A stretch of 64,000 nucleotides of DNA, from positions 3,022-67,021 of the forward strand of contig MFQZ01000003.1 of the NCBI GenBank assembly GCA_001784435.1, read 5' to 3'. The notes beneath the pieces were generated by a model, which saw only the letters and a program-made list of their open reading frames with translations, searched no databases and was not told the origin of the DNA. A program made the position numbers and the translations under genes. The DNA comes from Candidatus Magasanikbacteria bacterium RIFOXYC2_FULL_42_28 (GTDB lineage: Bacteria; Patescibacteriota; Patescibacteriia; Magasanikbacterales; GWA2-37-8). Position 1 is the first letter of the stretch. Each line of letters starts with the position of its first letter. Of this stretch, positions 6,525 through 63,020 are shown piece after piece.

Positions 6525-6606
6525 GGGCATGTGGCGGAACTGGTATACGCGTACGTCTCAGAAGCGTATGGGGTAACCCATGAGAGTTCAAATCTCTCCA
6601 TGCCCA
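6525..6606 (+). tRNA. tRNA-Leu (anticodon CAG)
   Basis: Manually folded. Acceptor GGGCATG/CATGCCC; 3-bp D stem with D loop GAACTGGTATA; anticodon stem TACGT/GCGTA (one G-U pair) with loop CTCAGAA (U33, anticodon CAG, A37); 13-nt variable arm; T arm GAGAG-TTCAAAT-CTCTC; discriminator A; CCA not encoded. Confidence 0.85.
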
Positions 6607-6681
6607 CGACGCTTAGCGTCGTAGTCGGCACGCTTAGCGTGCCACAACGCTAAGTATTATATTCGGGACGCTTAGCGTCCC
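6607..6681. repeat. three tandem copies of a short palindromic hairpin repeat (ACGCTTAGCGT core) directly downstream of tRNA-Leu
   Basis: The copies are gacgcttagcgtc, cacgcttagcgtg and ggacgcttagcgtcc within 75 bp. The same palindrome type (gacgctaagcgtc / ggacgttaagcgtcc) recurs inside a coding region at 19529-19562. Confidence 0.5.
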
Positions 6682-10059: not shown

Positions 10060-10745
10060 ATTTACTGTCATCCCGATGAAAATCGGGATCTCTGTCCAAA
10101 AATATAACAAGCAAAAACATCCCGACTAAGTCGGGATGTTTTCATTTTGTCTATAACTATAAGCCGAATTTTGTCCGGCGTCGCTACGCTATGCCGGACA
10201 AGTTCCGTTCCTTTTTACAAAGATACGGGCTTGCCCGAGCGTAGTTCCGACCAAGTCGGAACGAAGCCGGGATAACCATTTATCTAGGCCGACCATTGCT
10301 GGACGACTCAAGCCCGCCTTCGCTAATGCTATGGCGGACAATGCGAACGAACTTTTCCGGGCTTCGCTGCGCTTCGCCCGGTAAACCGTGATATTAATAT
10401 CATTGGGTTTACCCTGCGTAGCGCAGCGAAGCAGGGCTGCTCTTGCGCGCGGATAAGGATTTAGCCGTTTCACCCCCGATCTTATTTCCCCCTGTAATCG
10501 GGATTAAGCCATAATTTTGATAAATCAAAATTTTAGGGTTTGGCTCTTCCGGCAATTTCTCGCCGAAACGTCTCTGCTCGCACCTCGCGGGTTGCCCCGG
10601 GTTGGCGTTACCAACTATCTTTTTTCTCCCGACTTAGTCGGGAGGAGCGTGTTCGGACTTTCCTTCCCGACTAAGTCGGGATGGTTATCCATTATAGACA
10701 CCTATATTATAACACATTTTTGATGTTTTGTCAAGATACCAACCC
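10060..10745. repeat. ~690-bp noncoding stretch made almost entirely of nested palindromic repeat elements (several families)
   Basis: Contains gtcatcccgatgaaaatcgggatctctgtc (10067-10096; an identical copy is at 41375-41404), cccgactaagtcggg palindromes at about 10121, 10628 and 10666, tgtccggcg...gccggacaag, gttccgaccaagtcggaac, and gcttcgctgcgc...gcgtagcgcagcgaagc (shared with 37764-37784). The ORFs predicted here (10189..10473, 10517..10723) are repeat-derived. Confidence 0.6.
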
Positions 10746-10760
10746 TCGATAATGACTAAT

Positions 10761-11387
10761 TTAAGCCAAATTTTCTGCCACACTATACTCTTGCAACGCC
10801 TTTTTAATTTTCTGCTCGCTTACTTCATAACCTGGCAAAAAATAAACTTTCTCGCTATAATTAATATCATTAAAATACGCTAACTGCTCTCTAAAAATTC
10901 TTCCATTAAACTCACCACCAAATATTGCTTTCCCGGCTTTGGTTATTTCTACGACTGAATGATGATCACGAATGATAAAATATAAGTCAACATAATCTTT
11001 CCATTTTGCTCGCCGCCCCAAAGCGTACGCTTTCATCGCGGCCAAAGTAAGCAAATCCGGAAAACGCAGTAACTTGTCAAAATTTTTGCTATAATCAATT
11101 TTGAATGGATATTGAAAAAAAGTCAACTGTACTTGTCCAATAAAAAAAGTAAATTGACCATCTTCGTCCTTATACACCGTTTTTATCTTTCGTCGGCTCT
11201 TAGTAATCGCTTTTCTAATTTTGGCATTATCAAATTTCTCCAAAGAAAACAAATCAAAATCAATTGACTGACGATGGCCAATTTGCAAAGCAATAGCCGT
11301 TCCTCCCACCAAACCAAATTTTTTAGTAAATTTTCCCACTAACGGCAAGAGTTGACGTTGTTCCTCTGATAAAATTTCTGGATGCAT
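10761..11387 (-). CDS. nucleotidyltransferase-family protein, AbiEii/DUF1814-like (putative toxin of a type IV TA module)
   Basis: N-terminal GG...D.D motif LVGGTAIALQIGHRQSIDFDLF, as in AbiEii-like nucleotidyltransferases. 208 aa; immediately follows a small ORF on the same strand. Confidence 0.4.
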   Translation of the reverse strand: MHPEILSEEQRQLLPLVGKFTKKFGLVGGTAIALQIGHRQSIDFDLFSLEKFDNAKIRKAITKSRRKIKTVYKDEDGQFTFFIGQVQLTFFQYPFKIDYSKNFDKLLRFPDLLTLAAMKAYALGRRAKWKDYVDLYFIIRDHHSVVEITKAGKAIFGGEFNGRIFREQLAYFNDINYSEKVYFLPGYEVSEQKIKKALQEYSVAENLA

Positions 11388-11986: not shown

Positions 11987-11995
11987 ATTTTTGTT

Positions 11996-12028
11996 GTCAT
12001 TGCGAGCCCAAAGGGGCGTGGCAATCTC
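11996..12028. repeat. palindromic repeat element of the GTCATTGCGAG...GGCAATCTC family
   Basis: gtcattgcgagcccaaaggggcgtggcaatctc. The overlapping spurious ORF translates to ...CHCEPKGAWQSL, the signature peptide of this repeat family. Confidence 0.6.
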
Positions 12029-13639: not shown

Positions 13640-13717
13640 TACCCCACCCTCGCCCTCCCCTTTTTATAAAGGGAGGGGAAACCGAGATTGCCGCGTTGTT
13701 TCACTCCTCGCAATGAC
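13640..13717. repeat. palindromic repeats upstream of the sugar transferase gene (ccctcccc...ggggaggg hairpin plus a GAGATTGCC...CTCGCAATGAC element)
   Basis: ccctcgccctcccctttttataaagggaggggaaaccgagattgccgcgttgtttcactcctcgcaatgac. The second part is the reverse-orientation copy of the 11996 element. Confidence 0.55.
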
Positions 13718-13728
13718 AAATAAACCCT

Positions 13729-18980: not shown

Positions 18981-20117
18981 ATGATTAAGAAAGAATATAT
19001 GCGAATTGGAATTGACGCGCGGATGTATGGCCCAAAACAAGGCGGACTCGGACGATACATTCAGCAACTAATTTTAAACTTGGAAAAAATTGATAGCGTT
19101 AACGAATACGTAATTTTTTTGCGTAAGGAAAATTGGGATGAATTTACGCCAACCGCGCCGAATTTTACGAAAAAATTAGCCGACATTCATTGGTACGGCT
19201 GGCGCGAACAACTGCTTTTACCAAAAATTTTAAATACTGCCAAAGTAGATTTAATGCATTTCCCCCATTGGAATGTGCCATTTTTTTATCGCCAGCCATT
19301 TGTCGCGACTATTCATGATTTATTGCTACTTCACTATCCCACTCGCGCCGCCAGCACTCTCGGACCGATTTCGTATTTCTTCAAAAATATTGCATTTAAA
19401 TTTATTTTAAACCACACTGCCAAATCTGCCAAACAAATTATTACGCCGTGCGAGTTTGTAAAAAACGATATTGTAAAAACGTTAAAAATAAATCCCGAAA
19501 AAATTGCCGTCACACTTTTAGCGCCGACGCTAAGCGTCGGCCATGGGACGTTAAGCGTCCCGCCCGATAACCTCCCCACCCAACCCTATGTTTTATACGT
19601 TGGCGTGGCCTTCCCCCACAAAAACCTGCCCGGTCTGATTCGCGCTTGGAAAATTTTTACAGAAAAATATGACAACAGTTATCGCTTAGTTTTAGTTGGT
19701 AAGGAAAATTATTTTTACAGACAACTTCAAAATCATCCCCTTGTTAAAGAATTGAAAAACAAACCAATTTTCACCGGCTTTGTGCCGGACGAACAGTTGG
19801 CGCATTTTTATCAAAACGCATCGCTGTATATTTTTCCGTCGCTCTACGAAGGATTTGGTGTGCCACCGCTGGAAGCAATGCAATATAATATTCCGGTCGC
19901 GTCCTCAAACCGCACCTGCCTGCCCGAAATTTTAAAAGACGCGGTGGTATATTTTGATCCGGAAAACTACGAAGCAATAGCCGAAACGATAAAACACGCG
20001 CTCACTGACGAAAATTTACGCAAAAATCTCATAATTAAAGGCCAAAATCTTCTCAAGAATTACTCTTGGGACGCGACTACCAAACAAACGCTCAAAATTT
20101 ACCAAAATTGGGGATAA
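18981..20117 (+). CDS. glycosyltransferase family 4 (GT-B) with an in-frame palindromic-repeat insertion
   Basis: Typical GT4 C-terminus FPSLYEGFGVPPLEAMQYNIPVASSNRTCLPEI. Nucleotides 19529-19562 (gacgctaagcgtcggccatgggacgttaagcgtcc) are two hairpin repeats that translate as PTLSVGHGTLSVP. Confidence 0.8.
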   Translation: MIKKEYMRIGIDARMYGPKQGGLGRYIQQLILNLEKIDSVNEYVIFLRKENWDEFTPTAPNFTKKLADIHWYGWREQLLLPKILNTAKVDLMHFPHWNVPFFYRQPFVATIHDLLLLHYPTRAASTLGPISYFFKNIAFKFILNHTAKSAKQIITPCEFVKNDIVKTLKINPEKIAVTLLAPTLSVGHGTLSVPPDNLPTQPYVLYVGVAFPHKNLPGLIRAWKIFTEKYDNSYRLVLVGKENYFYRQLQNHPLVKELKNKPIFTGFVPDEQLAHFYQNASLYIFPSLYEGFGVPPLEAMQYNIPVASSNRTCLPEILKDAVVYFDPENYEAIAETIKHALTDENLRKNLIIKGQNLLKNYSWDATTKQTLKIYQNWG

Positions 20118-24779: not shown

Positions 24780-24890
24780 GCCTGTGGTGGACAATGTCAA
24801 ACCAAATCCAAAGTTCAAATTACAAATTTGATATTTTGATTTTGACATTGATTTGACATTGCCCATTTTGATTTTGAAATTTAAGAATTT
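24780..24890. repeat. AT-rich intergenic repeat block containing TTTGACATTGATTTGACATTG (same 21-mer as at ~60267)
   Basis: ttgattttgacattgatttgacattgcccattttgattttgaaa. Related ttttgattttga motifs occur at 15150-15280, 34183-34223 (reverse complement), 37668-37700 and 45180-45213. Confidence 0.45.
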
Positions 24891-25885
24891 TAATAATTCA
24901 AAAAAACACCAACTAAATCTCCCGCCATCCTGTTATCATTCCGCTCTACCCAATTTATCCTCTGATCACGCTTAAACCAAGTCAGCTGCCGTTTGGCATA
25001 ACGCCGTGTATCGCGTTTTAAAATTTCGATCACTTCGTCCAGCGTCATCTCGCCCCGCAAATAATACCCCATCTGCCGATACCCAATTCCGCTCATACTC
25101 GGCAACGCCCATATGTCATTGCGAGCGAAGCGCGGCAATCTCTCACTGTCATCCTGAACTCCATGCGATGCCGCATGGCTATCGTGTTTCAGGATCTCTC
25201 GCACTAACCCCTCCGTCTCCCCCACCAACCCATCTTTTATTTGCTCGTCCACCCGCGCGTTAATCCGTTCATACAATTCTTCTCGCGGCCAATTCAATCC
25301 AATCTGTAAACAATCATACAGCTGTTTACCTTTTTTCTGCTGTTTTACAAACGACTCCCCCGCCAAAGCCACTTCCACCGCCCGCAATACCCGTCGCGGA
25401 TTTTTTAAATCAATTACCTCGGCACTATCTGGGTCTTTGGTACGCAACATTTTTACCATTTCCGTTAATGATAATTTTTCTAATTCTTTTCGCAAAGTTT
25501 TATCCGGCACCACTTTGGGGATATCCAAATTATCAATCACCGCCCAAAAATACAACCCCGTTCCGCCCACCAAAATCGGCAACTTCCCCCGCGCCAAAAT
25601 ATCGTCAATGGCATTGATGGCGTCCGCCTTAAAATCCGCCAAACTATAATCTTGGTCAGGGTCAACGGTATTTATCAGATGGTGTGAGATCCCTTCTACT
25701 ATATATACCCCGTTCCCAGGACTTCCTGGTGGCTTAGCAGTGCCAATGTCCATGTTTTTATATATCTGCCGAGAATCAAAACTCACCACTTCCCCGTTAA
25801 ATTTCTTAGCCAAAAAAATACCAACATCGGTTTTTCCCGAAGCTGTTGGCCCTAAAATGGCAATAATTTTTGGTAATTTGGACAT
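24890..25885 (-). CDS. miaA: tRNA dimethylallyltransferase (MiaA) carrying an in-frame insertion of a palindromic repeat element
   Basis: N-terminal P-loop MSKLPKIIAILGPTASGKTDVGIFLAKKFNGEVVSFDSRQIYKNMDIGTAKP. Near the C-terminus the repeat 25115-25205 translates as ...HGVQDDSERLPRFARNDIWALPSMSGI (LPRFARND is the peptide signature of this repeat). The MiaA sequence resumes afterwards (GYRQMGYYLRGEMTLDEVIE). Confidence 0.85.
   Translation of the reverse strand: MSKLPKIIAILGPTASGKTDVGIFLAKKFNGEVVSFDSRQIYKNMDIGTAKPPGSPGNGVYIVEGISHHLINTVDPDQDYSLADFKADAINAIDDILARGKLPILVGGTGLYFWAVIDNLDIPKVVPDKTLRKELEKLSLTEMVKMLRTKDPDSAEVIDLKNPRRVLRAVEVALAGESFVKQQKKGKQLYDCLQIGLNWPREELYERINARVDEQIKDGLVGETEGLVREILKHDSHAASHGVQDDSERLPRFARNDIWALPSMSGIGYRQMGYYLRGEMTLDEVIEILKRDTRRYAKRQLTWFKRDQRINWVERNDNRMAGDLVGVFLNY
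25115..25205. repeat. composite palindromic repeat element (GTCATTGCGAGCGAAGCGCGGCAATCTC unit + GTCATCC...GGATCTCTC unit) inside miaA
   Basis: gtcattgcgagcgaagcgcggcaatctctcactgtcatcctgaactccatgcgatgccgcatggctatcgtgtttcaggatctctcgc. The same unit types occur in intergenic DNA at 11996, 13684, 10067, 41375 and 45123. Confidence 0.65.
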
Positions 25886-40607: not shown

Positions 40608-41081
40608 TTAACCTCTTTTTTTATTTCTACCACGGTGAGTGGATTTTAAACTATGGCAATTTGGACACAAAACTCGTAAATTTTCCAATCGATTGTCGTG
40701 TCTATCTCCATTTATATGATCCAACTCTACCGGGATCCGACCGTCAATTGCTTTTTGCGCCCAACCACATTCTTCGCAAGCCGGTTTTTTTATTTTCACC
40801 GCGAATAATCTCTTCTTTAATTTAAAACTCTGAAAACGACTTCCTGAAACTAAAATACTCTCAAGAGAGAAAAGTGGTTCTCGAGGAACCTTTTTTCCCT
40901 TGCTCCAACCCATACCGGTAAAGTGCGCATTATCCAATTTCAAATCAGCGATATAATTCTTAACCTGCTCATAATTACCGCCCGCTTCGACTAACCCTAA
41001 TTTGCCAATGACCTGCCGAATACTAGTGGAATTTTTTACTGCTTTTTGTAATTGCTCAATTGTCCATTTTCTTTTTCTCAT
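40608..41081 (-). CDS. HNH homing-endonuclease-like protein (phage-type N-terminal DNA-binding module + HNH nuclease)
   Basis: C-terminal HNH motif ELDHINGDRHDNRLENLRVLCPNCHS. The N-terminal module (SIRQVIGKLGLVEAGGNYEQVKNYIADLKLDNAHFTGMGWSKGK) is typical of free-standing phage HNH endonucleases. Its stop is 4 nt from the tRNA-Leu(UAA) 5' end. Confidence 0.7.
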   Translation of the reverse strand: MRKRKWTIEQLQKAVKNSTSIRQVIGKLGLVEAGGNYEQVKNYIADLKLDNAHFTGMGWSKGKKVPREPLFSLESILVSGSRFQSFKLKKRLFAVKIKKPACEECGWAQKAIDGRIPVELDHINGDRHDNRLENLRVLCPNCHSLKSTHRGRNKKRG

Positions 41082-41374
41082 ATGTTACCCATTATAACAT
41101 ATGGTAGACAAATAAGCAATAGCATTCCTTTTGCTCTACCAAAATTCCCTCCACAGAGCTGCGAGTAGATTTGCGTGTTTTAGCTTCAAATAAAATGGCG
41201 AAAGCTCCACTCATAACAAAGAAATGTTAGGAGATGGGAGAGAGAATGCTTTAACTCATCTTATTCGGTTGAGACACCAATTCTATCGCAGCTCAATAGA
41301 GAGAACAGATACCATTGTAGACGATTTAAAAGTTATGTCAAGACACCTTATCTGTTGATAAGTGATTACAAATT

Positions 41375-41477
41375 GTCATCCCGATGAAAATCGGGATCTC
41401 TGTCTCAAACAATGTGTTAAATTGTGAAGATCCCGATTTTCATCGGGATGACAACCCCCACTACGACTCGCAATGAC
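41375..41477. repeat. large inverted-repeat (cruciform-capable) element built from the GTCATCCCGATGAAAATCGGGATC unit
   Basis: gtcatcccgatgaaaatcgggatctctgtc...(30 nt)...gatcccgattttcatcgggatgac forms a perfect 24-bp inverted repeat, then ...ctcgcaatgac. The left arm is identical to 10067-10096. Confidence 0.6.
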
Positions 41478-45052: not shown

Positions 45053-45104
45053 CGAATTTTAGAGATTAAACTAGCGTTAAGGGATTCCTCCGCTCGCTAC
45101 GGCT

Positions 45105-45172
45105 CGGTCGGAATGACAGCGAGAGATTGCTTCCCGCCAGAGGCGGGCAGGCGTCTGCTTCTCGCAATGACA
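45105..45172. repeat. palindromic repeat element (GAGATTGC...CTCGCAATGAC family, reverse orientation) with internal cccgccagaggcgggc hairpin
   Basis: ggaatgacagcgagagattgcttcccgccagaggcgggcaggcgtctgcttctcgcaatgac. Confidence 0.6.
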
Positions 45173-45213: not shown

Positions 45214-48200
45214 TTAACTGCACCCCGTCGTACTCCCACAATTCAAACACTTGTAACAACTTCCACTCCGAATAGTCATGTGCCCACAAGTTCCACACGG
45301 AGGCGCGTCGCCCATCATATTAGACAGCATCGCGTCGACGGCGGTAGTTTTTTTGCTGGCCGATGGCATTTTTGGCAAACTCATTTGGGCTTCGGCAATT
45401 TCTACTTGCTCGGATTCTTTTTTAACTAAACTGTCTGGCGTTTCCAATTCTAACGATGTCTGCGCCGTCGCCTCTTGGGCAATATGCGCCAACTGTTGAG
45501 CGCGGTTGCGTTGGATGCCGGTGGGTTTGACTTGGACAAAATCCGTTCGGCCTAAATATTCCATTCCGATGACGCGGAAAATAAAATCAATAATGGAAGT
45601 GGAAAATTTAACATTGGGGTGATCAGTCATGCCCGATGGCTCAAAGCGCGTAAAAGTAAATTTATCTACATATTCTTCTAGTGGCACGCCATATTGCAAA
45701 CCGGTAGAAATGGAAATGGCGAATAAATTTAACAAACTGCGGAACGACGCACCCTCTTTATACATATCGATAAACACCTCGCCTAATTTGCCGTCCGGGA
45801 ATTCGCCGGTGCGTAGGAATAGTTTTTGACCGCCAACTTTGGCTTTAATAGTCATACCACTGCGTTTGTAAGGCAACTTGCGTTGTTCGCCGTGGATGTA
45901 AACATGTTTGCCGTTGGAGGTGCCATCGTGGGCGTAATTTATTTGCATGTCTTCGGCATCAACGGCTTGTTGCCAATCGCCGTTGGCGAGTGCTCCCACC
46001 CCCTCTGCTTCTCCCCCTCGGGCAGGGGGAGACACCGCGACCGCGCCACCAACTACCGGGGCAACTTTCTCTTCAATTTTTTCTTCTTTTTTGCTTTCGG
46101 TTTTTTTGCTTTTGGCCGAAAGCGGTTGTGATAATTTACAACCGTCGCGATAAATTGCGTTGCATTTTAAGCCCAATTTCCACGAGGCCATGTAAGCGAT
46201 TTTGATATCCTCTACCGTCGCTTCGTTCGGCATATTAATTGTTTTGGAAATTGAACCGCACAAAAACGGTTGCACCGCGGCCATCATCCGGATATGACCA
46301 AGATAATGAATATAGCGCTGGCCTTTTTTGCCGTTCTTGTTGGCAGTATCAAACACCGCATAATGTTCCGAGCGTAAATGGGGCGCACCTTCAATCGTCA
46401 TCGCTCCGCAGACAAATTCGTTCGCTTCGGACACCTGTTCATCAGTAAATCCAAGCGCTTTTAACAAATTAAAATTGGGGTCATTGTATTGTTCGCTCGT
46501 GTAGCCCAATCGTTTTAGACATTCCTCTCCCAAAGTCCAAACATTAAATACAAAACCCATTTCAAACGCACCGAGCAAGGTCTTTTCAATTTTGGCAATA
46601 TCTTCATCAACAAAACCTTTAACTTTTAAACTTTCGGAGTTGATGTGCGGACAATTTTTTAGAGTGGCGCGGCCTTTTAGATAATCAGCAATGTCGTCAA
46701 TTTGTTTCTGATTATAACCCAAAGTTTTAAGCGCCATCGGGACGCTCTCATTCACAATTTTGAAATATCCGCCACCGGCTAATTTTTTAAATTTCACGAG
46801 CGCGAAATCCGGCTCCACGCCGGTGGTGGAACAATCCATCACAAGACCAATCGTTCCGGTCGGAGCCAGCAAAGTGGTTTGAGCGTTACGATAACCATAA
46901 CGCTCACCCATTTCTAACGCTTCATTCCACAAATTGCGCGCGGCCACGAGCAAATACGCGGGCGCAAATTCTTCAGAAATTCCAACCGGCTTAACAGCCA
47001 AAGATTCATATTCGTCATCAGAGGCGTTAAACGCGGCCCGACGATGATTGCGAATCACACGCAGCATTTCGGCGCGATTATGTTTGAATTTTGGAAATGG
47101 TCCTAAATTTTTCGCCATTTCGGCCGAGGTAATATATGATTGTGCGCCCATGATGGCCGTGACGGAACCGGCAAAAGCCAGGGCCTCGGGTGAGTCATAA
47201 GGAATACCAGCGGTCATAAGTACCGAACCAATATTGGCATAACCCAATCCCAAAGTGCGAAAATCATAACTACCTTGCGCAATTTCTTTACTGGGGAATT
47301 GTGCCATTAAAACACTTGTTTCCAAAACTACAGTCCAAAGACGCGTGGCATATTTAAAACCTTCAATATCAAAACTCGCGGTCTCGCTGTCATAAAAATG
47401 GGCAAGGTTAATAGAGGCGAGATTACAGGCAGTGTTGTCGATGAACATGTATTCACTGCAAGGATTACTCGCGTTAATCCGACCGGAATTCGGACAGGTG
47501 TGCCATTCATTAATGGTAGTATCATACTGCAACCCCGGATCGGCACATGACCAAGCCGAAGTGGCGATTTGTTCCCAAAGTGAGCGCGCGGGCAAAGTTT
47601 TACAAACCTTACCGCCGGTACGCCATTTTAAATTCCAGTCCGCGCCGGTTTCTACTGCTTCTAAATATTCTTGCGTAACGCGCACAGAGTTGTTGGAATT
47701 TTGACCGGACACAGTGTTATACGCTTCGCCTTCATAATGTGAATCATAGCCGGCCGCGACCATGGCCGCAACTTTCTTTTCTTCATTAACTTTCCAAATA
47801 ATAAATTCTTCAATATCCGGATGATCAACATCTAAAATTACCATTTTCGCCGCACGCCGAGTGGTACCGCCGGATTTAATCCCACCGGCCGCACGATCGC
47901 CGATTTTAAGCCAGCTCATTAAGCCCGATGATGTGCCACCACCGGATAACGGCTCGCCCCGTCCACGCAAAGCGGAAAAATTCGTGCCGGTACCGGAGCC
48001 ATATTTAAACAACCGCGCCTCGCGCACCCATAAATCCATAATACCACCTTCGTTGACCAAATCGTCGTTAACGGATTGGATAAAACAGGCGTGCGGTTGC
48101 GGATGAGTATAAGAATCTTCCGAACGAGTTAATACGCCGGTGTCAGGATTAATATAATAATGTCCTTGTGATGGCCCGTTAATTCCATACGCCCATTGCA

Positions 48201-48702
48201 AACCGGTATTAAACCATTGCGGAGAATTTGGCGCGGCCATTTGGTTGATTATCATGTAAACGAGCTCGTCGTAAAATACAACCGCGTCCTCGGCACTGGC
48301 AAAGTAACCATATTTTTCCGCCCAATATCGCCAAGTACCGGCCAAACGGTGCGCCACTTGCTTAACGCTGTTTTCAGGACCAAGCATGGGGGTCCCGTCA
48401 GCGTTCAACTTTGGCGCACCGTCCGCATCATACTGCAGAACGCCGGCTTTACGAAAATATTTTTGCGCCAAAATATCCGTGGCCACTTGCGACCACGTTT
48501 TTGGCACCTCTACATCGTTCATTTCAAAAATTATCTTACCGGTTGACTCGCGAATTACAGACGAACGCAGTTCGTACTGGAACATATCGTACGGACTCAC
48601 CCCGTTTTTAGTAAAATGCCGTTCAAATTTCAGGCCATTTTCCGGTGAATATTTATAATCAGAATCAACTTTAAAAATTTTAGTGGCGACAGCGGTGTTC
48701 AT
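45214..48702 (-). CDS. nrdJ: adenosylcobalamin-dependent (class II) ribonucleoside-triphosphate/diphosphate reductase
   Basis: Long RNR alpha-type ORF. The ORF track extends to 48759, but the ATG at 48702 (MNTAVATKIF...) is the likely start. It has class II RNR core motifs and a C-terminal Cys-rich Zn ribbon CGTCGHMTIRSGSCYKCLNCGSTTGC. The window also encodes a PduO cobalamin adenosyltransferase. An in-frame GC-rich palindrome (tctccccctcgggcagggggaga) lies at 46005-46030. Confidence 0.8.
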   Translation of the reverse strand: MNTAVATKIFKVDSDYKYSPENGLKFERHFTKNGVSPYDMFQYELRSSVIRESTGKIIFEMNDVEVPKTWSQVATDILAQKYFRKAGVLQYDADGAPKLNADGTPMLGPENSVKQVAHRLAGTWRYWAEKYGYFASAEDAVVFYDELVYMIINQMAAPNSPQWFNTGLQWAYGINGPSQGHYYINPDTGVLTRSEDSYTHPQPHACFIQSVNDDLVNEGGIMDLWVREARLFKYGSGTGTNFSALRGRGEPLSGGGTSSGLMSWLKIGDRAAGGIKSGGTTRRAAKMVILDVDHPDIEEFIIWKVNEEKKVAAMVAAGYDSHYEGEAYNTVSGQNSNNSVRVTQEYLEAVETGADWNLKWRTGGKVCKTLPARSLWEQIATSAWSCADPGLQYDTTINEWHTCPNSGRINASNPCSEYMFIDNTACNLASINLAHFYDSETASFDIEGFKYATRLWTVVLETSVLMAQFPSKEIAQGSYDFRTLGLGYANIGSVLMTAGIPYDSPEALAFAGSVTAIMGAQSYITSAEMAKNLGPFPKFKHNRAEMLRVIRNHRRAAFNASDDEYESLAVKPVGISEEFAPAYLLVAARNLWNEALEMGERYGYRNAQTTLLAPTGTIGLVMDCSTTGVEPDFALVKFKKLAGGGYFKIVNESVPMALKTLGYNQKQIDDIADYLKGRATLKNCPHINSESLKVKGFVDEDIAKIEKTLLGAFEMGFVFNVWTLGEECLKRLGYTSEQYNDPNFNLLKALGFTDEQVSEANEFVCGAMTIEGAPHLRSEHYAVFDTANKNGKKGQRYIHYLGHIRMMAAVQPFLCGSISKTINMPNEATVEDIKIAYMASWKLGLKCNAIYRDGCKLSQPLSAKSKKTESKKEEKIEEKVAPVVGGAVAVSPPARGGEAEGVGALANGDWQQAVDAEDMQINYAHDGTSNGKHVYIHGEQRKLPYKRSGMTIKAKVGGQKLFLRTGEFPDGKLGEVFIDMYKEGASFRSLLNLFAISISTGLQYGVPLEEYVDKFTFTRFEPSGMTDHPNVKFSTSIIDFIFRVIGMEYLGRTDFVQVKPTGIQRNRAQQLAHIAQEATAQTSLELETPDSLVKKESEQVEIAEAQMSLPKMPSASKKTTAVDAMLSNMMGDAPPCGTCGHMTIRSGSCYKCLNCGSTTGCS

Positions 48703-48755
48703 ATTGTTATAATTATGGGTGAAACCCTGTAATTTGTTATTTAAATTGATTTGAA

Positions 48756-48771
48756 ACACTATATGTAGTGT
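48756..48771. promoter_or_regulatory. NrdR-box-like palindrome in the nrdJ 5' region
   Basis: acactatatgtagtgt matches the NrdR box consensus acaCwAtATaTwGtgt. On the minus strand it lies between an extended -10 (tgatataat, plus 48791-48799) and the nrdJ start. Confidence 0.4.
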
Positions 48772-48937
48772 TTAAGTTCAAGGCCTATACATTATATCAC
48801 ACTCCGTCAAGAGCGACCAAATGACGACAAAAACCTTACAGTTGAGAGAAAAAAACCAACAAAAAATTTTGTTTGTAAAAGTTATCCACACCCCTCCGTC
48901 CCGACTGTGTCGGGACTACGGCGGTACAAGTCACTAA

Positions 48938-50008
48938 CTAACGCCACAACCAACACTCGCTCGCTACCTTTTGCTTTAACTTTCGCGAATTGCCATGACT
49001 GATAAGCCCTAAATACGATTGGACAACAGTATCTTTCGTAGTTAGGCGAATTTTTCGCAACATTCTCTGTTTTGTTTTAGTTCGAATAACACGATGGTCA
49101 AAGAAATTCACCCAACCAAGAAAATCAACACCGGAAGACACGGTTTTTATAAAAACTTTATCCGGATGCAAGGTAAGTTTTAAATTTGATTGTAAAAATT
49201 CTTGTATTTTTGGCATTGCCGCCTCCAACCGAAATTTATCACGCGAAAGAAAAATAAAATCATCGGCATACCGCGCGTAATAATGAGATTTTAGCCGGTG
49301 CTTTACCCATTGATCAAATTTATTTAAATAAATATTGGCGAATAACTGTGAGGTAAGATTGCCGAGAGGTAAGCCGACGCCAGATAATGATTCTGTGTGG
49401 AAACTGTTAATAATATTCTGCAACAGTCGAAGTATATTTTGATCAGGAATATAGCTACGCAATATTGTCAGTAATATTTCGTGATTAATACTCGCAAAAA
49501 ATTTCCTAATATCACATTTCAACACCCAACAAGTACGGTTATGATTTTTACTCACTCGAAACACCAAATTTCTAAAACTATTTACCGCCTTATGCGTCCC
49601 TTTATTATCACGGCAGGAAAAAGATCCGGCAATAAAAGTTTTATCAAAAAATGGATATAAAATCCGATAAACAGCGTGGTGGAGTAGCCGATCGCGCACG
49701 CTTGCCTTATGAATATGCCGTCGTTTGGGATCGTTAATAAAAAAACTTTTATAACCGCCGTGTTGATAAACGCGATTGACTAAATCTTCGTGAAGTTCTA
49801 CAATATTATCCATTAAGCGACTCTCAAACTCCACAACATCAATTTTCTTTTTCTTGTCAATTATAAATTCCTCCCACGCTAAACATAAATTTTCGTGGGA
49901 AATAATATTTTCATAACTATGACTCAATTGAATTTTCCCGCCGACACGGCAATTAAGCCCCCCCCCCCAGCAAAGCCGTACTGAAATTCCCATTTTGACT
50001 GAACTCAA
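48938..50008 (-). CDS. diversity-generating retroelement (DGR) reverse transcriptase
   Basis: RT motifs including YARYADDFIF (YxDD box) and the DGR-specific motif-4 sequence GVGLPLGNLTSQLFANIYLN (I/LGxxxSQ). 356 aa (or 351 from the ATG at 49993; the ORF track uses a TTG start). Adjacent TR/VR pair and Avd gene. Confidence 0.85.
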   Translation of the reverse strand: MSSVKMGISVRLCWGGGLNCRVGGKIQLSHSYENIISHENLCLAWEEFIIDKKKKIDVVEFESRLMDNIVELHEDLVNRVYQHGGYKSFFINDPKRRHIHKASVRDRLLHHAVYRILYPFFDKTFIAGSFSCRDNKGTHKAVNSFRNLVFRVSKNHNRTCWVLKCDIRKFFASINHEILLTILRSYIPDQNILRLLQNIINSFHTESLSGVGLPLGNLTSQLFANIYLNKFDQWVKHRLKSHYYARYADDFIFLSRDKFRLEAAMPKIQEFLQSNLKLTLHPDKVFIKTVSSGVDFLGWVNFFDHRVIRTKTKQRMLRKIRLTTKDTVVQSYLGLISHGNSRKLKQKVASECWLWR

Positions 50009-50330
50009 GATTTGTTATTTGTTGTGGCATAGTTTTTTAATTGATCTCCCGCGTTTGACGCGCTACACGCTCGGCGTAAAAATAGATAATTTATTTACCG
50101 AACTACTGGGGATAACGATTGCCGCGCAATATACCAAACGAACTGATAAATTAGAATTTTTAGAAGAATTGAATAGAAAATTTGATAACTTAAAATATTT
50201 TATCACTATTCTCTGGGAAGCAAAAGGGTTAAGTGCCGGAAAATATGCGCAACTATCTCAAAAACTCACACGCATCGGCCAAATGCTCGGCGGTTGGATT
50301 GCGCTTTTAAAAAGAAACTCTCCCAACTAA
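49995..50330 (+). CDS. Avd-like DGR accessory variability determinant (four-helix-bundle family), encoded on the strand opposite to the RT and TR
   Basis: 111 aa. The C-terminus LTRIGQMLGGWIALLKRN resembles the Bordetella Avd C-terminus (...GRILGSWIARVNRKG). The size and helical character fit the 23S-rRNA-IVS/Avd family. The start overlaps the RT start divergently. Confidence 0.6.
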   Translation: MTELKICYLLWHSFLIDLPRLTRYTLGVKIDNLFTELLGITIAAQYTKRTDKLEFLEELNRKFDNLKYFITILWEAKGLSAGKYAQLSQKLTRIGQMLGGWIALLKRNSPN

Positions 50331-50353
50331 ATTGGGAGAGAACGAGGATATTA

Positions 50354-50471
50354 GCTGAGGAAGCCGAACAGGTAGTTCCGATTCCAGTTGCCCTTGACCG
50401 TGTTGAGGTTCAGGTTGCGCCAGTCGGAATTGCCGTTGAGGTAGAGCACGTTGCCGTCCCGCGCGGAGCCG
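50354..50471 (-). repeat. DGR template repeat (TR), 118 bp, sense strand = minus
   Basis: 118/118 alignable with 50827-50944. All 14 mismatches are at positions where this copy has A on the minus strand. The minus-strand reading is ...GNVLYLNGNSDWRNLNLNTVKGNWNRNYLFGFLS, built on AAC/AAT codons. Confidence 0.8.
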
Positions 50472-50820
50472 CCTACAAATATACAAAATAACTTCTGTAA
50501 CACCGCCCCTTGAATACTCTTGGGGTTGAATCGAATTTGGAAACTTTATTTCCCTACTATTTTGTACCGAGTATCTTCATTTTTAGGGTATACCGGTAGC
50601 ACACTAACTGGCAACATATCGCCAATTATTCCGGCCGATCGGTGTATCCAGAGTTCAACCGCCCAAAGCCGTAGCCGTGGACTGTTTCGTTTACTATCCG
50701 GATATAGTATACCACAAAAAGGAAGAGCGCGCACCGAGAACCGATGCGCGCGCGAGGTGAAACGAAGGGACCGAGCGACCAAGGAACAAACAAAGTTCCA
50801 AGGCACCCAGGATCCCAGCG

Positions 50821-51399
50821 CTACTCGCTGAGGAAGCCGAACAGGAAGCGCCGACGCCAGCGGCCCTTGACCGTGTCGAGGTACAGGCCGCGCCAGTCGG
50901 AATCGCCGTAGAGGTAGAGCACGCTGCCGTCCCGCGCGGAGCCGAGCTCCACGATCGGTGCGTTCCTCTGCTCATCGGGGTGTTGCACCCCGATGGCCAA
51001 GAGGTGCTTGGGCAGGATGGGCGGCTTGGCGTTCTCCTTCCCCCAAGCCAGCATCTCCTCGCGGAACGGATCCCTGTCAAACTGCACCAAGATCACGCTC
51101 GCCGGCTTGGCGAGGCCAACTTCATCATTCGCAAACTGCCGAACGATGTTGTCGTCGGTGCCGTCGTACTTGCCGATCTTGATTGCCTCGGCAACCGACG
51201 ACACCTTGTACGGCTGGAGGACGAGCGTCCTCACAACCGTACCGATGAGCGGCGACGGCGGGGTGAGAGCCGGCCGTGTGACATCTTCCACGACGAGCTT
51301 GCGCTCACCGCGAAAAATGGCGCGGGCTACATCTGCGCCTCCCAACATGTTGAGGAGCGCTTCAGTTTCGCCCCTCCTCCAATCATCATACTTTCCCAT
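50821..51399 (-). CDS. DGR target protein (192 aa, unknown fold) with C-terminal variable region
   Basis: The minus-strand ORF contains the VR in frame. The ATG at 51399 is preceded by a strong SD ggaaggagctcgtcATG; the ORF track's longer 50821..51558 version lacks such a signal. The region is GC-rich (about 60% or more) relative to the rest of the window. Confidence 0.6.
   Translation of the reverse strand: MGKYDDWRRGETEALLNMLGGADVARAIFRGERKLVVEDVTRPALTPPSPLIGTVVRTLVLQPYKVSSVAEAIKIGKYDGTDDNIVRQFANDEVGLAKPASVILVQFDRDPFREEMLAWGKENAKPPILPKHLLAIGVQHPDEQRNAPIVELGSARDGSVLYLYGDSDWRGLYLDTVKGRWRRRFLFGFLSE
50827..50944 (-). repeat. DGR variable repeat (VR) at the 3' end of the target gene
   Basis: Same 118 bp as the TR, but with N at 14 TR-adenine positions. 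It encodes the C-terminal ...GSVLYLYGDSDWRGLYLDTVKGRWRRRFLFGFLSE of the target protein and ends 3 codons before the stop. Confidence 0.8.
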
Positions 51400-51637
51400 G
51401 ACGAGCTCCTTCCGAGTTGAAAACCCGAAAAGTGTTTTGCCTCTGCCCGAGGCCCAGGTCTCTCTCTGCATGAGAAGAGCTTTTGTGCCACTTACAAATA
51501 AATATAGGTAAACCATATTTACTCCTTGGTTCGAAAATGGAACGAAAGCACGGCTCATGATTGTTTAATTTTAACACTAAATCATACCTTAAAATAATGA
51601 TTTTGTCAATGTTTGTGTACCACGACCTCTTCATCAC

Positions 51638-51666
51638 TTGACATATTTTGATATTTAGTGTAAAAT
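51638..51666 (+). promoter_or_regulatory. sigma70-type promoter for the AbiEi/AbiEii operon
   Basis: TTGACA (51638-51643), 17-nt spacer, TAAAAT (51661-51666). Confidence 0.4.
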
Positions 51667-51704
51667 ATATACATAAAGTCATTAAATCTTATGACCTACG
51701 CTAT

Positions 51705-52490
51705 ATGAAACAAACTATACTTTCTGCTAAACAAAGCGAACTGCTCGAAAATCTGATTGGTGAATATGGCTTGATTGTCACTTCTGGTCAGATTATTAAG
51801 ATTGCTAAAAATAACTGGGATTACAAACAAGCCAAAAATCTAATAACAAAACTTGTCAAAGACGGCTGGCTCATCCGTATCAAACGAGGTCTGTATACTA
51901 TTTCCGAATTAACCGGCCGAGGATTTTTGTCGCTCTCATCCTATACGGTGGCCAATCTCTTGGTCAAGGATTCATACGTTTCTTTTGCATCCGCATTGCA
52001 ATATCATAATATGTTTGATCAGCTCATGAAAAAAACTACCTCTGTCAGTTTAAAAATGTACAAAACTACCACACTTAATAACATGGAATATGATTTTGTA
52101 AAAACCAAAAAACAATTATTTTTTGGTTTTGAAGAGATCGTGTTTTATAATAAAACAGTACGAATTGCCACAGCGGAAAAAGCGCTAATTGATATGGTCC
52201 ATTTTCACAAAAGTAAATTGATGATTGATGTGGTGATTGAAAAAATTATTAATCACAAACACGATCTGGATTTTAATCGTTTTAACGAATACCTATCTAA
52301 ATTTTCCGGCACTACCATTAAAATATTTGGCCTTATTTTTGATTTTCTAAATATTGATTCCAGTAAATTATACAAAATTGTGAAACATAAGCGCGGCACT
52401 AACTGGATGTTAGTCGGCGACAAAAAATTCGATGCCAAATGGAGAATATACTATGACGAATTCTTTGATCAATATAATGAAAAAACTTAA
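51705..52490 (+). CDS. type IV toxin-antitoxin system antitoxin AbiEi (wHTH transcriptional regulator)
   Basis: N-terminal AbiEi_4-like wHTH (LSAKQSELLENLIGEYGLIVTSGQIIKIAKNNWDYKQAKNLITKLVKDGWLIRIKRGLYTIS). It immediately precedes an AbiEii gene. The ORF track's 51648 start is a TTG inside the promoter; the ATG at 51705 is preferred. Confidence 0.7.
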   Translation: MKQTILSAKQSELLENLIGEYGLIVTSGQIIKIAKNNWDYKQAKNLITKLVKDGWLIRIKRGLYTISELTGRGFLSLSSYTVANLLVKDSYVSFASALQYHNMFDQLMKKTTSVSLKMYKTTTLNNMEYDFVKTKKQLFFGFEEIVFYNKTVRIATAEKALIDMVHFHKSKLMIDVVIEKIINHKHDLDFNRFNEYLSKFSGTTIKIFGLIFDFLNIDSSKLYKIVKHKRGTNWMLVGDKKFDAKWRIYYDEFFDQYNEKT

Positions 52491-52500
52491 TTTTTAAAAT

Positions 52501-53259
52501 ATGATTACTCGCCAACAATTAGAAATTATTAACCGAAAAACTTTGAAATATCCTTTGCATATTGCGGAAAAAGATTATTTTCTCACATTGGTTCTCCAAA
52601 TTATTACCCAATCCACCCTCCAAGATACTCTTATTTTCAAAGGTGGTACCGCTCTACACCATACCTACTTGGAACAACATCGTTTTTCCGAGGACTTGGA
52701 TTTTTCCGCCAACCAAAAACCGGTAGAATTGGAAGAATTGCGAAATATTTTTAGTGGTATTGACTATTTGAATATTAAAAAAGATTATCTCTCTGGCGCG
52801 ACTGTAAAAATTGAAAAATTGCAATACACCGGCCCTTTAATTCAGCCCAATTCTTTGAAAGTGGAAATAGATTTTTTGCAAAATGTTTTGCTTCCTCCTC
52901 AAACCCTAAAATACAACAACGTCTGGAATATAGATTTTGAGGTAAAGGTAATGAACATCAAGGAAATCTGCGCTGAAAAAATTCGCGCCACGAACGATCG
53001 CGCTCGTTATCGCGATTTTTATGATTTATTTCTTATTTTAGAAAAATATCAACTTGATTTAAACGAAATCGCCAGATATATAAAACAAAAAGAAATTAGA
53101 AAGCCGTTGACAAAAAACAACATAAAAAATAACTGGGCAATGATTGGTGCACAAAAAGAAATTGAAATGAGCCAAATATATTATTCTCGAATGATTGAGG
53201 ATGGGGAGATAATGGCCATGATTGAAACTCTGCCATTTACCAAGATTACAAAAATATAA
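52501..53259 (+). CDS. type IV toxin-antitoxin system toxin AbiEii (DUF1814 nucleotidyltransferase)
   Basis: Hallmark FKGGTALHHTYLEQHRFSEDLDF (GG...S.D.D NTase motif) and C-terminal ICAEKIRATNDRARYRDFYDLFLI. Confidence 0.8.
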   Translation: MITRQQLEIINRKTLKYPLHIAEKDYFLTLVLQIITQSTLQDTLIFKGGTALHHTYLEQHRFSEDLDFSANQKPVELEELRNIFSGIDYLNIKKDYLSGATVKIEKLQYTGPLIQPNSLKVEIDFLQNVLLPPQTLKYNNVWNIDFEVKVMNIKEICAEKIRATNDRARYRDFYDLFLILEKYQLDLNEIARYIKQKEIRKPLTKNNIKNNWAMIGAQKEIEMSQIYYSRMIEDGEIMAMIETLPFTKITKI

Positions 53260-60179: not shown

Positions 60180-60305
60180 TGTTAATATCAAATTGTTAAT
60201 TTCAAAATCCAAATTTCCAATTTCCAATCAAATCCAAAATTCTAATATCAAATTTTACATTTTGGCTTTGACATTGATTTGACATTGGAAATTGGAAATT
60301 TGACA
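60180..60305. repeat. AT-rich divergent-promoter region containing the TTTGACATTGATTTGACATTG repeat and (GGAAATT)2
   Basis: ggctttgacattgatttgacattggaaattggaaatttgacatt. The 21-mer is identical to 24841-24861; TTGACA is reiterated three times. Confidence 0.45.
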
Positions 60306-60386
60306 TTAATCGACTACAATTTACACATAAATAATTGCAAATTTAGTGATATTTAGATATACTTAATGCAAAGTTAACTATTACCA

Positions 60387-62955: not shown

Positions 62956-63020
62956 AATATTGTATTATTTAAACAAAATATCCCGACTTAACCGGGATAT
63001 TTTGTTATCAGGGGTCGGGT

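What the first reader, a model, noticed from the sequence alone, without database searches (positions are those of the whole stretch)
25115..25205. Palindromic repeat element inserted in-frame into miaA
A ~90-bp composite palindromic element (GTCATTGCGAGCGAAGCGCGGCAATCTC plus GTCATCC...GGATCTCTC) interrupts the MiaA coding sequence without breaking the frame, adding about 30 residues (...SERLPRFARNDIWALPSMSGI...). The same element family is scattered through intergenic DNA in the window (11996, 13684, 10067, 41375, 45123). This recalls Rickettsia palindromic elements and Neisseria Correia-like MITEs that colonise ORFs. Either MiaA tolerates the insert in a surface loop or the gene is compromised.
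Basis: seen in the sequence. Interest (0 to 1): 0.55.

Follow-up and report, generated by a model that had tools for sequence, protein, structure and literature searches.

The report
Selfish hairpin repeats inside miaA
Two small hairpin-forming repeats of a family found in many bacteria sit in frame in a loop of the tRNA-modifying enzyme MiaA of a Candidate Phyla Radiation bacterium. The enzyme looks intact, so this is a new example of a phenomenon already known from Rickettsia.

Summary
miaA (24890-25885, minus strand, 331 aa) carries two head-to-tail hairpin units on the plus strand: unit A at 25114-25142 and unit B at 25147-25198. Read antisense, they give an open 31-residue segment (228-258). 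That position holds 5-6 residues in 108 of the 120 closest homologues and 3-7 residues in 90 non-CPR MiaA genes.

Both units have the same signature: a TGTC tag, a stem starting with AT, then AT-CTC. This signature occurs 10 times in the window against 0.32 expected. The other good copies are all intergenic. It matches the published CGTC/TGTC-tagged REP superfamily, which includes Rickettsia RPE-4/RPE-6 and Neisseria dRS3/NTS. Exact unit A and the unit B stem also recur in unrelated public contigs.

The insert lies in a low-confidence loop of a model that otherwise fits E. coli MiaA. Conserved residues and branch length look normal, so tolerance is favoured over gene damage. At least seven CPR lineages carry different hairpin inserts in this same loop, and a second loop is also often hit.

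How the element moves was not shown. No Ssn-type or RAYT-type gene is in the window. Verdict: a real feature and a new member of a known kind.

The parts
24890..25885 (-). miaA coding sequence (tRNA dimethylallyltransferase), 331 aa, intact
   Evidence: ORF list. Pfam IPPT E=3.8e-73. A 100% match to a Candidatus Magasanikbacteria MAG protein. The model fits E. coli MiaA 3foz_A with TM 0.80/0.86.
25112..25204 (-). Extra 31-codon segment, MiaA residues 228-258: VREILKHDSHAASHGVQDDSERLPRFARNDI. Orthologues have 5-6 residues here.
   Evidence: Alignments. phmmer against PDB chains splits the match at residues 227/262. Residues 239-256 have pLDDT below 50 and lie between helices 220-239 and 267-276.
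25114..25142 (+). Unit A: TGTC tag, ATTGC..GCAAT stem with an inner GCG/CGC pairing, CTC tail. Read antisense it encodes (E)RLPRFARND.
   Evidence: The exact unit was seen 3 times among 183 copies of this subfamily in unrelated IMG/VR contigs, and its nearest variants are the commonest form there.
25147..25198 (+). Unit B: TGTC tag, 8-bp stem ATCCTGAA/TTCAGGAT (25151-25158 and 25188-25195), 29-nt loop, CTC tail. Read antisense it encodes EILKHDSHAASHGVQDD.
   Evidence: The same tag, stem and tail occur 41 times in 30 IMG/VR stretches, there with a 5-nt loop CTTGT or CTCGT. Unit B is therefore a canonical unit with 24 extra bases in its loop.
25161..25178 (+). Small nested hairpin CCATGCG-ATGC-CGCATGG inside the loop of unit B
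   Evidence: the repeat finder pair I4. Unique in the window. Similar expanded loops with an inner hairpin occur at 45123-45172 and in L076.
10066..10092 (+). Intergenic family copy TGTC-ATCCCGAT-GAAA-ATCGGGAT-CTC: 8-bp stem, 4-nt loop
   Evidence: family D16.
11995..12028 (+). Intergenic copy of the unit A subfamily (TGTCATTGCGAG...GGCAATCTC)
13684..13718 (-). Intergenic copy of the unit A subfamily. It abuts a C-rich hairpin of a second family at 13640-13680.
41374..41476 (.). Intergenic cluster. Two inverted copies, tails facing each other (41374-41400 on +, 41427-41453 on -), plus a truncated unit A-type head at 41462-41476 on -.
45081..45172 (-). Intergenic head-to-tail dimer (45123-45172 and 45081-45118) with the same architecture and junction (..GCAATCTCTCGC-TGTCAT..) as the miaA insert

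Best explanation
The insert is a head-to-tail dimer of small non-autonomous hairpin repeats. They belong to the CGTC/TGTC-tagged REP superfamily, the kind that includes Rickettsia RPE-4/RPE-6 and Neisseria dRS3/NTS.

The dimer landed in the short variable loop of MiaA that precedes the conserved LPSMSGIGY motif. It survives because three conditions hold (shown). The reading frame is kept. The antisense frame that is read has no stop codon. That frame encodes a hydrophilic, probably disordered peptide in a loop that accepts insertions. MiaA therefore remains a working enzyme with a 25-26 residue decoration.

The following steps are inferred, not shown. The unit is mobilised in trans as a single-stranded DNA hairpin. 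The conserved tag and the C after the stem are the recognition points. The enzyme is one like the Ssn GIY-YIG single-strand nucleases that bind and cut NTS hairpins in Neisseria, and it is encoded elsewhere in the genome or was supplied transiently. The loop of unit B later acquired 24 more bases containing a hairpin.

Purifying selection then removes most coding insertions. What remains is copies in intergenic DNA and in a few permissive protein loops.
For: (1) The insert is derived. This site holds 5-6 aa in 108 of 120 close homologues and 3-7 aa in 90 non-CPR loci. PDB homologues have about 8 aa there.

(2) Family identity. The TGTC-AT..AT-C signature occurs 10 times in the window against 0.32 expected. 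The features match the published description: a CGTC tag that is often TGTC, stems that begin with AT, and a 3-nt tail. Exact unit A and the unit B stem recur in unrelated public contigs.

(3) Relatives carry canonical units at the same site, encoding LDSRLRGNDN and VDSRFRGNDN. R. conorii CGTC-1 encodes DSRFRGND.

(4) Seventeen different stems stay fully paired: 223 of 245 hits, against 122 when partners are permuted.

(5) Tolerance. Insert residues 239-256 have pLDDT below 50 in a model with mean pLDDT 84.5 that fits E. coli MiaA-tRNA at TM 0.80/0.86. The window MiaA keeps 113 of 118 highly conserved columns, 95.8% against a family median of 96.6%. Its branch length (0.101) equals that of its sisters (0.100 and 0.105).

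(6) The frame used is the only open antisense frame and the most hydrophilic of the six (mean Kyte-Doolittle -0.99).

(7) Twelve of 120 homologues, in at least 7 clades, carry different inserts in this loop. In the closest three genes the flanks align but the inserts are unrelated.

(8) Five of the six loci with these units lie in the 14% of the window that is non-coding.

(9) A protein partner is known for this hairpin type: SsnA binds and cuts NTS as single-stranded DNA, and the NTS-ssnA-NTS arrangement resembles an insertion sequence. In my own viral loci, 97-aa GIY-YIG genes lie next to such hairpins.
Against: No transposase, RAYT or Ssn/GIY-YIG gene was found among 49 window ORFs or by tblastn, so mobilisation is unproven.

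The window's own units fail the published SRM search pattern. Unit A has an interrupted 5+3 bp stem and unit B a 29-nt loop, both outside the published 8-9 bp stem and 4-5 nt loop.

No empty-site allele or same-species relative was found. The time of insertion and any polymorphism are therefore unknown.

The hairpin folding energy is not significant.

Activity and expression of this MiaA are untested. The distance from the loop to the tRNA was not measured.

The 85-nt repeat DNA is not a multiple of 3. A few ancestral loop codons must have been lost or overwritten.
Confidence: 0.82

Rival explanations
1. The gene is compromised. The insertion has inactivated MiaA and the open frame is a young pseudogene that has not yet decayed.
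For: The insert lies immediately before the highly conserved LPSMSGIGY motif. The hairpin stems are still perfect, which is compatible with a recent event. No functional data exist.
Against: The frame is open along the full length. The protein keeps 95.8% of highly conserved columns, within the family range, and its branch is not longer than its sisters'. Eleven other lineages keep inserts of 9-38 aa in the same loop in otherwise conserved proteins. The model folds as MiaA.
Confidence: 0.08
2. The extra segment is an ancestral, functional part of MiaA in this lineage rather than a mobile repeat.
For: The two closest relatives, P0002 and P0003, also have extra residues at this site.
Against: Their inserts differ in length and sequence while the flanks align. 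108 of 120 homologues and all 90 non-CPR genes lack any insert. The DNA is a copy of a repeat found in intergenic DNA and in unrelated contigs.
Confidence: 0.02
3. The hairpins have been co-opted. Either they act as an RNA or DNA signal inside miaA (mRNA stability, pausing, or a target for an Ssn-like nuclease that limits recombination), or the peptide has a new role.
For: In Neisseria, NTS hairpins modulate transformation through SsnA. REPs are proposed to act as RNA elements. The stems are intact, and the same loop is hit repeatedly.
Against: Inserts at the site differ in family, length and sequence between lineages, which fits tolerance better than a shared function. There is no terminator-like feature in the insert and no Rfam match. 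No Ssn gene was found here. The peptide is predicted to be disordered.
Confidence: 0.06
4. Assembly or binning artefact: repeat-induced mis-assembly placed repeat DNA inside miaA.
For: The source is a metagenome-assembled genome, and short repeats can mislead assemblers.
Against: The units are only 29 and 52 nt, shorter than a sequencing read, and the junctions keep the frame. Independent assemblies from other samples show hairpin inserts in the same loop.
Confidence: 0.02

Closest known systems
CGTC-tagged REPs, including Rickettsia conorii RPE-4/RPE-6 (Di Nocera et al. 2013, PMC3733652; Ogata et al. 2000, cited from memory)
   Same: A 5' unpaired C/TGTC tag, stems that begin with AT, a short 3' tail and many dispersed copies. 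Some copies are inserted in frame in genes for known proteins, often as dimers that add 20-30 aa. Inserts at this site in relatives encode the same peptides as in Rickettsia, for example DSRFRGND.
   Different: The host is a CPR bacterium (Magasanikbacteria), a group not covered in that survey, and MiaA is not among the listed target genes. The window units have a CTC tail instead of CCA. Their stems and loops are non-canonical: A has a 5+3 bp stem and B a 29-nt loop. The arrangement is head-to-tail rather than the prevalent head-to-head.
Neisseria dRS3 / NTS and Ssn-related motifs (Chenal et al. 2025, PMC11893778)
   Same: The same hairpin architecture, with the consensus CGTCAT-stem-loop-stem-ATC. 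Orientation is given by the upstream tag, and the C after the stem is conserved. Units in the relatives L001, L071 and L073 match the published SRM pattern.
   Different: The window's units do not match the SRM pattern. No ssn gene lies nearby. [quoted passage not shown]
GTAG-tagged REP/BIME elements with RAYT transposases (E. coli, Pseudomonas)
   Same: Short dispersed hairpins arranged in arrays, occasionally intragenic, thought to be mobilised as single-stranded hairpins.
   Different: There is no GTAG tag, and no Y1/HUH transposase was detected in the window.
Neisseria Correia elements (NEMIS) and other MITEs
   Same: Small, non-autonomous and abundant, and they can lie in or next to genes.
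   Different: Correia elements are 100-155 bp with ~26-bp terminal inverted repeats and a TA duplication (from memory). Here the outer arms are only 14 nt and 79% complementary. The element is two independent hairpins.

Membership tests
CGTC/TGTC-tagged REP superfamily (Di Nocera 2013) | Unpaired 5' tetranucleotide tag CGTC, or its TGTC/CCTC variants | tested here: met
   TGTC precedes the stem in all 9 good window copies, including both miaA units. The definition is quoted.
CGTC/TGTC-tagged REP superfamily (Di Nocera 2013) | Stem begins with complementary A and T at positions 1 and 2 | tested here: met
   All 9 copies read TGTC-AT...AT-C.
CGTC/TGTC-tagged REP superfamily (Di Nocera 2013) | Stem of 8-9 bp and loop of 4-5 nt | tested here: inconclusive
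   Met by 10066, 41374 and 41427 (8 bp, GAAA loop). Unit B has the 8-bp stem but a 29-nt loop, whereas its relatives elsewhere have 5-nt loops. Unit A has a 5-bp stem plus an inner 3-bp stem.
CGTC/TGTC-tagged REP superfamily (Di Nocera 2013) | Short unpaired 3' tail, consensus CCA | tested here: inconclusive
   A 3-nt tail is present. It is CTC in 7 window copies. It is CCA in L001, L071 and L076 and in 116 of 147 viral copies.
CGTC/TGTC-tagged REP superfamily (Di Nocera 2013) | Multi-copy and dispersed, mostly intergenic | tested here: met
   Ten signature hits against 0.32 expected. Five of six loci are intergenic.
Rickettsia palindromic elements (in-frame RPE) | Inserted in frame in a gene for a known protein and absent from orthologues | tested here: met
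Rickettsia palindromic elements (in-frame RPE) | Insertion at a surface or loop position compatible with the fold | tested here: met
   A low-pLDDT loop between two helices, with the rest of the model fitting E. coli MiaA. The distance to the tRNA was not measured.
Rickettsia palindromic elements (in-frame RPE) | Sequence homology to an RPE consensus | tested here: inconclusive
   Relatives' inserts encode the CGTC-1 (RPE-6) peptide DSRFRGND. The window's own units share only the tag, stem-start and tail signature.
Ssn-related motif (SRM/NTS, Chenal 2025) | Match to the pattern HGTCWYN(0-2)YYVSBRHN(0-5)WNVSBRGN(0-2)RNCYNB | tested here: not met
   Units A, B and 10066 do not match. The units in L001, L071 and L073 do.
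Ssn-related motif (SRM/NTS, Chenal 2025) | Genomic association with an ssn gene (about 94-aa GIY-YIG, cd10448) | tested here: not met
   No GIY-YIG gene was found in 49 ORFs, by a motif screen or by tblastn in the window and the CPR loci. The rest of the genome could not be searched.
Ssn-related motif (SRM/NTS, Chenal 2025) | Bound and cut as single-stranded DNA by the cognate Ssn | not testable with these tools
   Needs biochemistry.
GTAG REP / RAYT system | GTAG tag and an associated Y1 (HUH) transposase | tested here: not met
   The tag is TGTC. No Y1_Tnp hit in the window.
Correia-type MITE | Terminal inverted repeats of about 26 bp flanking a 100-155 bp element with a target duplication | tested here: not met
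   The outer arms are only 14 nt and 79% complementary. No duplication is seen at the junctions.

The most novel reading that the evidence does not exclude
In CPR bacteria, tagged hairpin repeats may be an active and general source of loop-length variation in essential proteins. Two MiaA loops have been colonised independently many times: at least 7 clades at this site, and about a quarter of homologues at a second site. Other genes in this window carry in-frame hairpin dimers. Hairpin loops themselves receive nested insertions. Together these would imply ongoing insertion directed at single-stranded hairpins, driven by an enzyme not yet identified in CPR, since no Ssn or RAYT gene lies nearby.
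Probability: 0.3. Interest if true: 0.55.

Novelty: new member of a known kind. Interest (0 to 1): 0.38.

Why it matters
This extends the 'selfish DNA inside protein-coding genes' phenomenon, known from Rickettsia and a few other bacteria, to the Candidate Phyla Radiation and to MiaA.

The same two loops of one enzyme are hit again and again by different hairpin families. That gives a natural map of insertion-tolerant positions in MiaA.

It is also a practical warning. CPR proteins can carry repeat-derived segments that inflate their length, split domain matches and seed spurious homology between unrelated proteins.

The link to the recently described Ssn single-strand nucleases gives a testable candidate for how such hairpins are recognised.

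Tried and rejected
- Exact or near-exact search for the two quoted motifs in the window found only the miaA copy. The family had to be defined by its signature.
- Rfam gave no relevant match.
- Folding energies were not significantly better than shuffled sequence.
- Genome and metagenome scans for close MiaA relatives returned no same-species locus or empty-site allele. Presence/absence polymorphism could not be tested.
- Literature searches by DNA string, by peptide strings and by CPR plus REP terms found nothing on CPR.
- I suspected an antisense orientation bias of intragenic copies. CPR loci gave 8 antisense and 2 sense, and single or tandem units were all antisense. The large viral set did not support it: 46 sense and 33 antisense, with crude ORF calls. 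I dropped it as a general claim.
- A transposase, RAYT or Ssn gene in the window: none found.
- A review of i6A enzymes did not say whether this loop touches the tRNA.
- No terminator-like site lies inside the insert.

Full report
**What is there**

The region lies inside the only long ORF that crosses it: 24890-25885 on the minus strand, 331 aa. This ORF is a tRNA dimethylallyltransferase, MiaA (Pfam IPPT, E=3.8e-73). It is identical to a protein of a Candidatus Magasanikbacteria metagenome-assembled genome, a member of the Candidate Phyla Radiation.

On the plus strand the insert is two head-to-tail units.
- Unit A, 25114-25142: TGTC-ATTGC-GAGCGAAGCGCG-GCAAT-CTC.
- Unit B, 25147-25198: TGTC-ATCCTGAA-(29 nt)-TTCAGGAT-CTC.
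- The loop of unit B holds a second small hairpin, CCATGCG/CGCATGG.

Read on the minus strand, the two units give EILKHDSHAASHGVQDD-SE-RLPRFARND with no stop codon. The segment that has no counterpart in orthologues is residues 228-258 (25112-25204).

**Is it more than chance, and is it a repeat family?**

The shared feature is a signature: a TGTC tag, a stem whose first two bases are AT, and AT followed by C (usually CTC) after the stem.
- The signature occurs 10 times in 64 kb, against a mean of 0.32 and a maximum of 3 in 300 first-order Markov resamples.
- Nine of these are convincing. Two are in miaA.
- The locus at 45081-45172 is a head-to-tail dimer with the same junction as in miaA.
- The folding energy of the region is not unusual, so I do not rely on thermodynamics.

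**Which family?**

Di Nocera et al. [quoted passage not shown] The superfamily includes Rickettsia conorii RPE-4 and RPE-6 and Neisseria dRS3.
- The window copies at 10066, 41374 and 41427 (TGTC-ATCCCGAT-GAAA-ATCGGGAT-CTC) fit this description exactly, apart from the tail.
- Copies in related CPR loci fit it fully. L001, for example, has TGTC-ATCCCCGC-AACA-GCGGGGAT-CCA.
- Scans of public viral contigs show that the miaA units belong to cosmopolitan subfamilies.
  - TGTCATTGCGAG...GCAATC gave 183 copies. Three are identical to unit A, and its one- or two-base variants are the commonest form.
  - TGTCATCCTGAA...TTCAGGATC gave 41 copies, with a 5-nt loop CTTGT or CTCGT and a CTC(T) tail.
- Unit B is therefore a canonical unit whose CTCGT loop has gained 24 bases.
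- I also searched for hits with the tag, a GNAR loop and the 3' ATC, without requiring any pairing. Of 245 hits, 223 are fully complementary, with 17 different stems. When partners are permuted the figure is 122. The sample is biased by how the loci were collected, but stems outside the search patterns are also paired.

**Is the insert derived?**

Yes.
- Between L227 and W259 the 120 closest homologues have 5-6 residues in 108 cases.
- All 90 non-CPR MiaA genes fetched have 3-7 residues there.
- phmmer against solved structures breaks the alignment at residues 227/262, where Bacillus halodurans MiaA has 8 residues.

Twelve homologues do have inserts here, of 9-38 aa. They fall in at least seven clades of a neighbour-joining tree and differ in sequence.

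At the DNA level these inserts are also hairpin repeats.
- L071 carries the reverse complement of GTCATTCCCGCGCAAGCGGGAATC, encoding LDSRLRGNDN.
- L072 carries GTCATCCCCGCGAAGGCGGGGATC.
- L073 carries two tandem units, one of which encodes VDSRFRGNDN.
- L001 and L074 carry a different, C-rich hairpin family.

The R. conorii CGTC-1 elements listed in the paper's supplement encode DSRFRGND, SFPRKRES and VIPAKAGI. These are the same peptides. In the three closest genes (window, L001, L071) the flanks align while the inserts are unrelated in length and sequence.

A second loop, after GTAKP, is extended in about 28 of the 120 homologues by the same kinds of peptide, but not in the window's gene.

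**Is MiaA damaged?**

The evidence says no.
- An AlphaFold model built on 32 sequences has mean pLDDT 84.5.
- Only residues 239-256 and 262-265 fall below pLDDT 50. They lie between helices 220-239 and 267-276.
- The model superposes best on E. coli MiaA bound to tRNA (3foz_A, TM 0.80/0.86, rmsd 3.8).
- The protein keeps 113 of 118 columns that are at least 90% conserved in the other 119 homologues. That is 95.8%, against a family median of 96.6% and a 10th percentile of 94.1%.
- Its terminal branch (0.101) equals those of its sisters (0.100 and 0.105).
- Of the six frames across A+B, three are open. The one used is the only open antisense frame and the most hydrophilic (mean Kyte-Doolittle -0.99).

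I could not measure how far the loop lies from the tRNA, and there are no activity data.

**How it probably works**

Shown:
- It is a dimer of tagged hairpin repeats.
- It is in frame and sits in a loop that many lineages have had extended.
- The gene is under normal constraint.
- Copies elsewhere in the window are almost all in the 14% of the sequence that is non-coding. That is what purifying selection on random insertions would leave.

Inferred:
- Mobilisation happens in trans through a single-stranded hairpin intermediate.
- Chenal et al. (PMC11893778) showed that the Neisseria NTS, CGTCATTCCCGCGMAVGCGGGAATCYRG, is bound and cut only as single-stranded DNA by SsnA, a 94-aa GIY-YIG protein.
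- In that work the three bases upstream of the palindrome and the C after it are critical, the loop is dispensable and can be extended, and NTS-ssnA-NTS resembles an insertion sequence.
- This matches what is conserved here (tag, AT, C) and what varies (loops).
- In my viral loci, five 97-aa GIY-YIG genes (Pfam PF01541, E about 1e-15) lie next to such hairpins.

Limits on this inference:
- The window and the CPR loci contain no Ssn, RAYT or other transposase.
- The window's units fail the published SRM search pattern, whereas the units in L001, L071 and L073 pass it.
- The enzyme in this organism is therefore unknown.

**Comparison and novelty**

Intragenic REPs and RPEs are established.
- R. 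bellii has 526 RPEs, 53 of them in genes.
- Di Nocera et al. note that more than half of intragenic inserts are dimers adding 20-30 aa, and that different REPs sit at about the same site in Xanthomonas recB.

What is new here is the host group, the target protein and the extent of recurrent colonisation. CPR genomes were not available to that survey. MiaA is absent from the paper's supplementary files held as text, which include the target list. Two loops of one enzyme have been colonised repeatedly. I found no paper that describes such repeats in CPR. I therefore class the finding as a new member of a known kind, of moderate interest.

**Caveats**

- The homologue set is the top 120 hits of one search. 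Clade counts come from a simple distance tree.
- IMG/VR contigs may include cellular DNA.
- Orientation bias was not upheld.
- No close relative with an empty site exists in the databases searched.

Noticed in passing
window 48938-51558: A diversity-generating retroelement. It has a reverse transcriptase ORF at 48938-50008 (-) (RVT_1, E=5e-27). A 123-nt template repeat lies at 50349-50471, and a variable repeat at 50822-50944 lies at the 3' end of ORF 50821-51558 (-). Fifteen of the 16 mismatches are at T on the plus strand of the template copy, which is A on the coding strand.
   Followed up: partly
window 19522-19559, in glycosyltransferase gene 18981-20117 (+): A dimer of a different hairpin family (GCCGACGCTAAGCGTCGGC / GGACGTTAAGCGTCC) lies in frame. 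It encodes APTLSVGHGTLSVP in the linker between the two GT domains. Intergenic copies of the family lie at 6604-6679.
   Followed up: partly
window 46010-46032, in ribonucleotide reductase gene 45214-48759 (-): An in-frame G/C hairpin TCTCCCCCTCGGGCAGGGGGAGA encodes ..VSPPARGGE.. in a low-complexity linker between the barrel and TSCPD domains.
   Followed up: no
window 13640-13680; L001 2725-2770; L074: A second, C-rich hairpin family (CCCACCCTCGCCCTCCCC-loop-GGGAGGGG) abuts the TGTC unit at 13684. The same type fills MiaA site 2 in P0002 (DPTLALPFLKREG) and P0012 (HPSLPSPQRGED), and site 1 in P0003.
   Followed up: partly
MiaA homologues, loop after GTAKP (window residues 53-67; window 25685-25729): This is a second insertion hot spot. 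About 28 of 120 CPR homologues carry 4-44 extra residues rich in repeat peptides (SQNDK, IPAFAGMT, ARNDN, RGNDN). The window's gene has none.
   Followed up: partly
L076 2103-2180; L003 10965-11016: Inverted pairs of TGTC/CGTC hairpins lie in frame in other CPR genes. One is in a radical-SAM/UPF0004 (MiaB-like) gene next to miaA in L076. The other is in a DUF4012 protein in L003.
   Followed up: partly
L164 2951-3378; L125 935-1263; L175; L163; L202: Single-domain GIY-YIG genes of about 97 aa (PF01541, E about 1e-15) lie next to CGTC-type hairpins in IMG/VR contigs. L125 has a hairpin 11 nt upstream, and L164 has hairpins on both sides of the gene. This matches the published NTS-ssn-NTS arrangement.
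   Followed up: partly
window 24792-24881 and 60218-60307: An AT-rich 90-nt repeat (TTGACATTGATTTGACATTG...) lies just downstream of miaA and has a 79% copy 35 kb away. Shorter relatives lie at several other intergenic sites (families D1, D2 and D5).
   Followed up: no
window 10116-10140, 10626-10686, 48898-48916, 62978-63000: Another small hairpin family (TCCCGAC-TAAG-TCGGGA) has at least 5 intergenic copies, often followed by T-rich sequence, so it may act as a terminator.
   Followed up: no
window 40608-41081 (-); 10761-11387 (-); 51648-53259 (+): An HNH endonuclease ORF lies about 300 nt from the hairpin cluster at 41374-41476. An AbiEii toxin gene lies at 10761-11387 (-). An AbiEi/AbiEii pair lies at 51648-53259 (+).
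   Followed up: no
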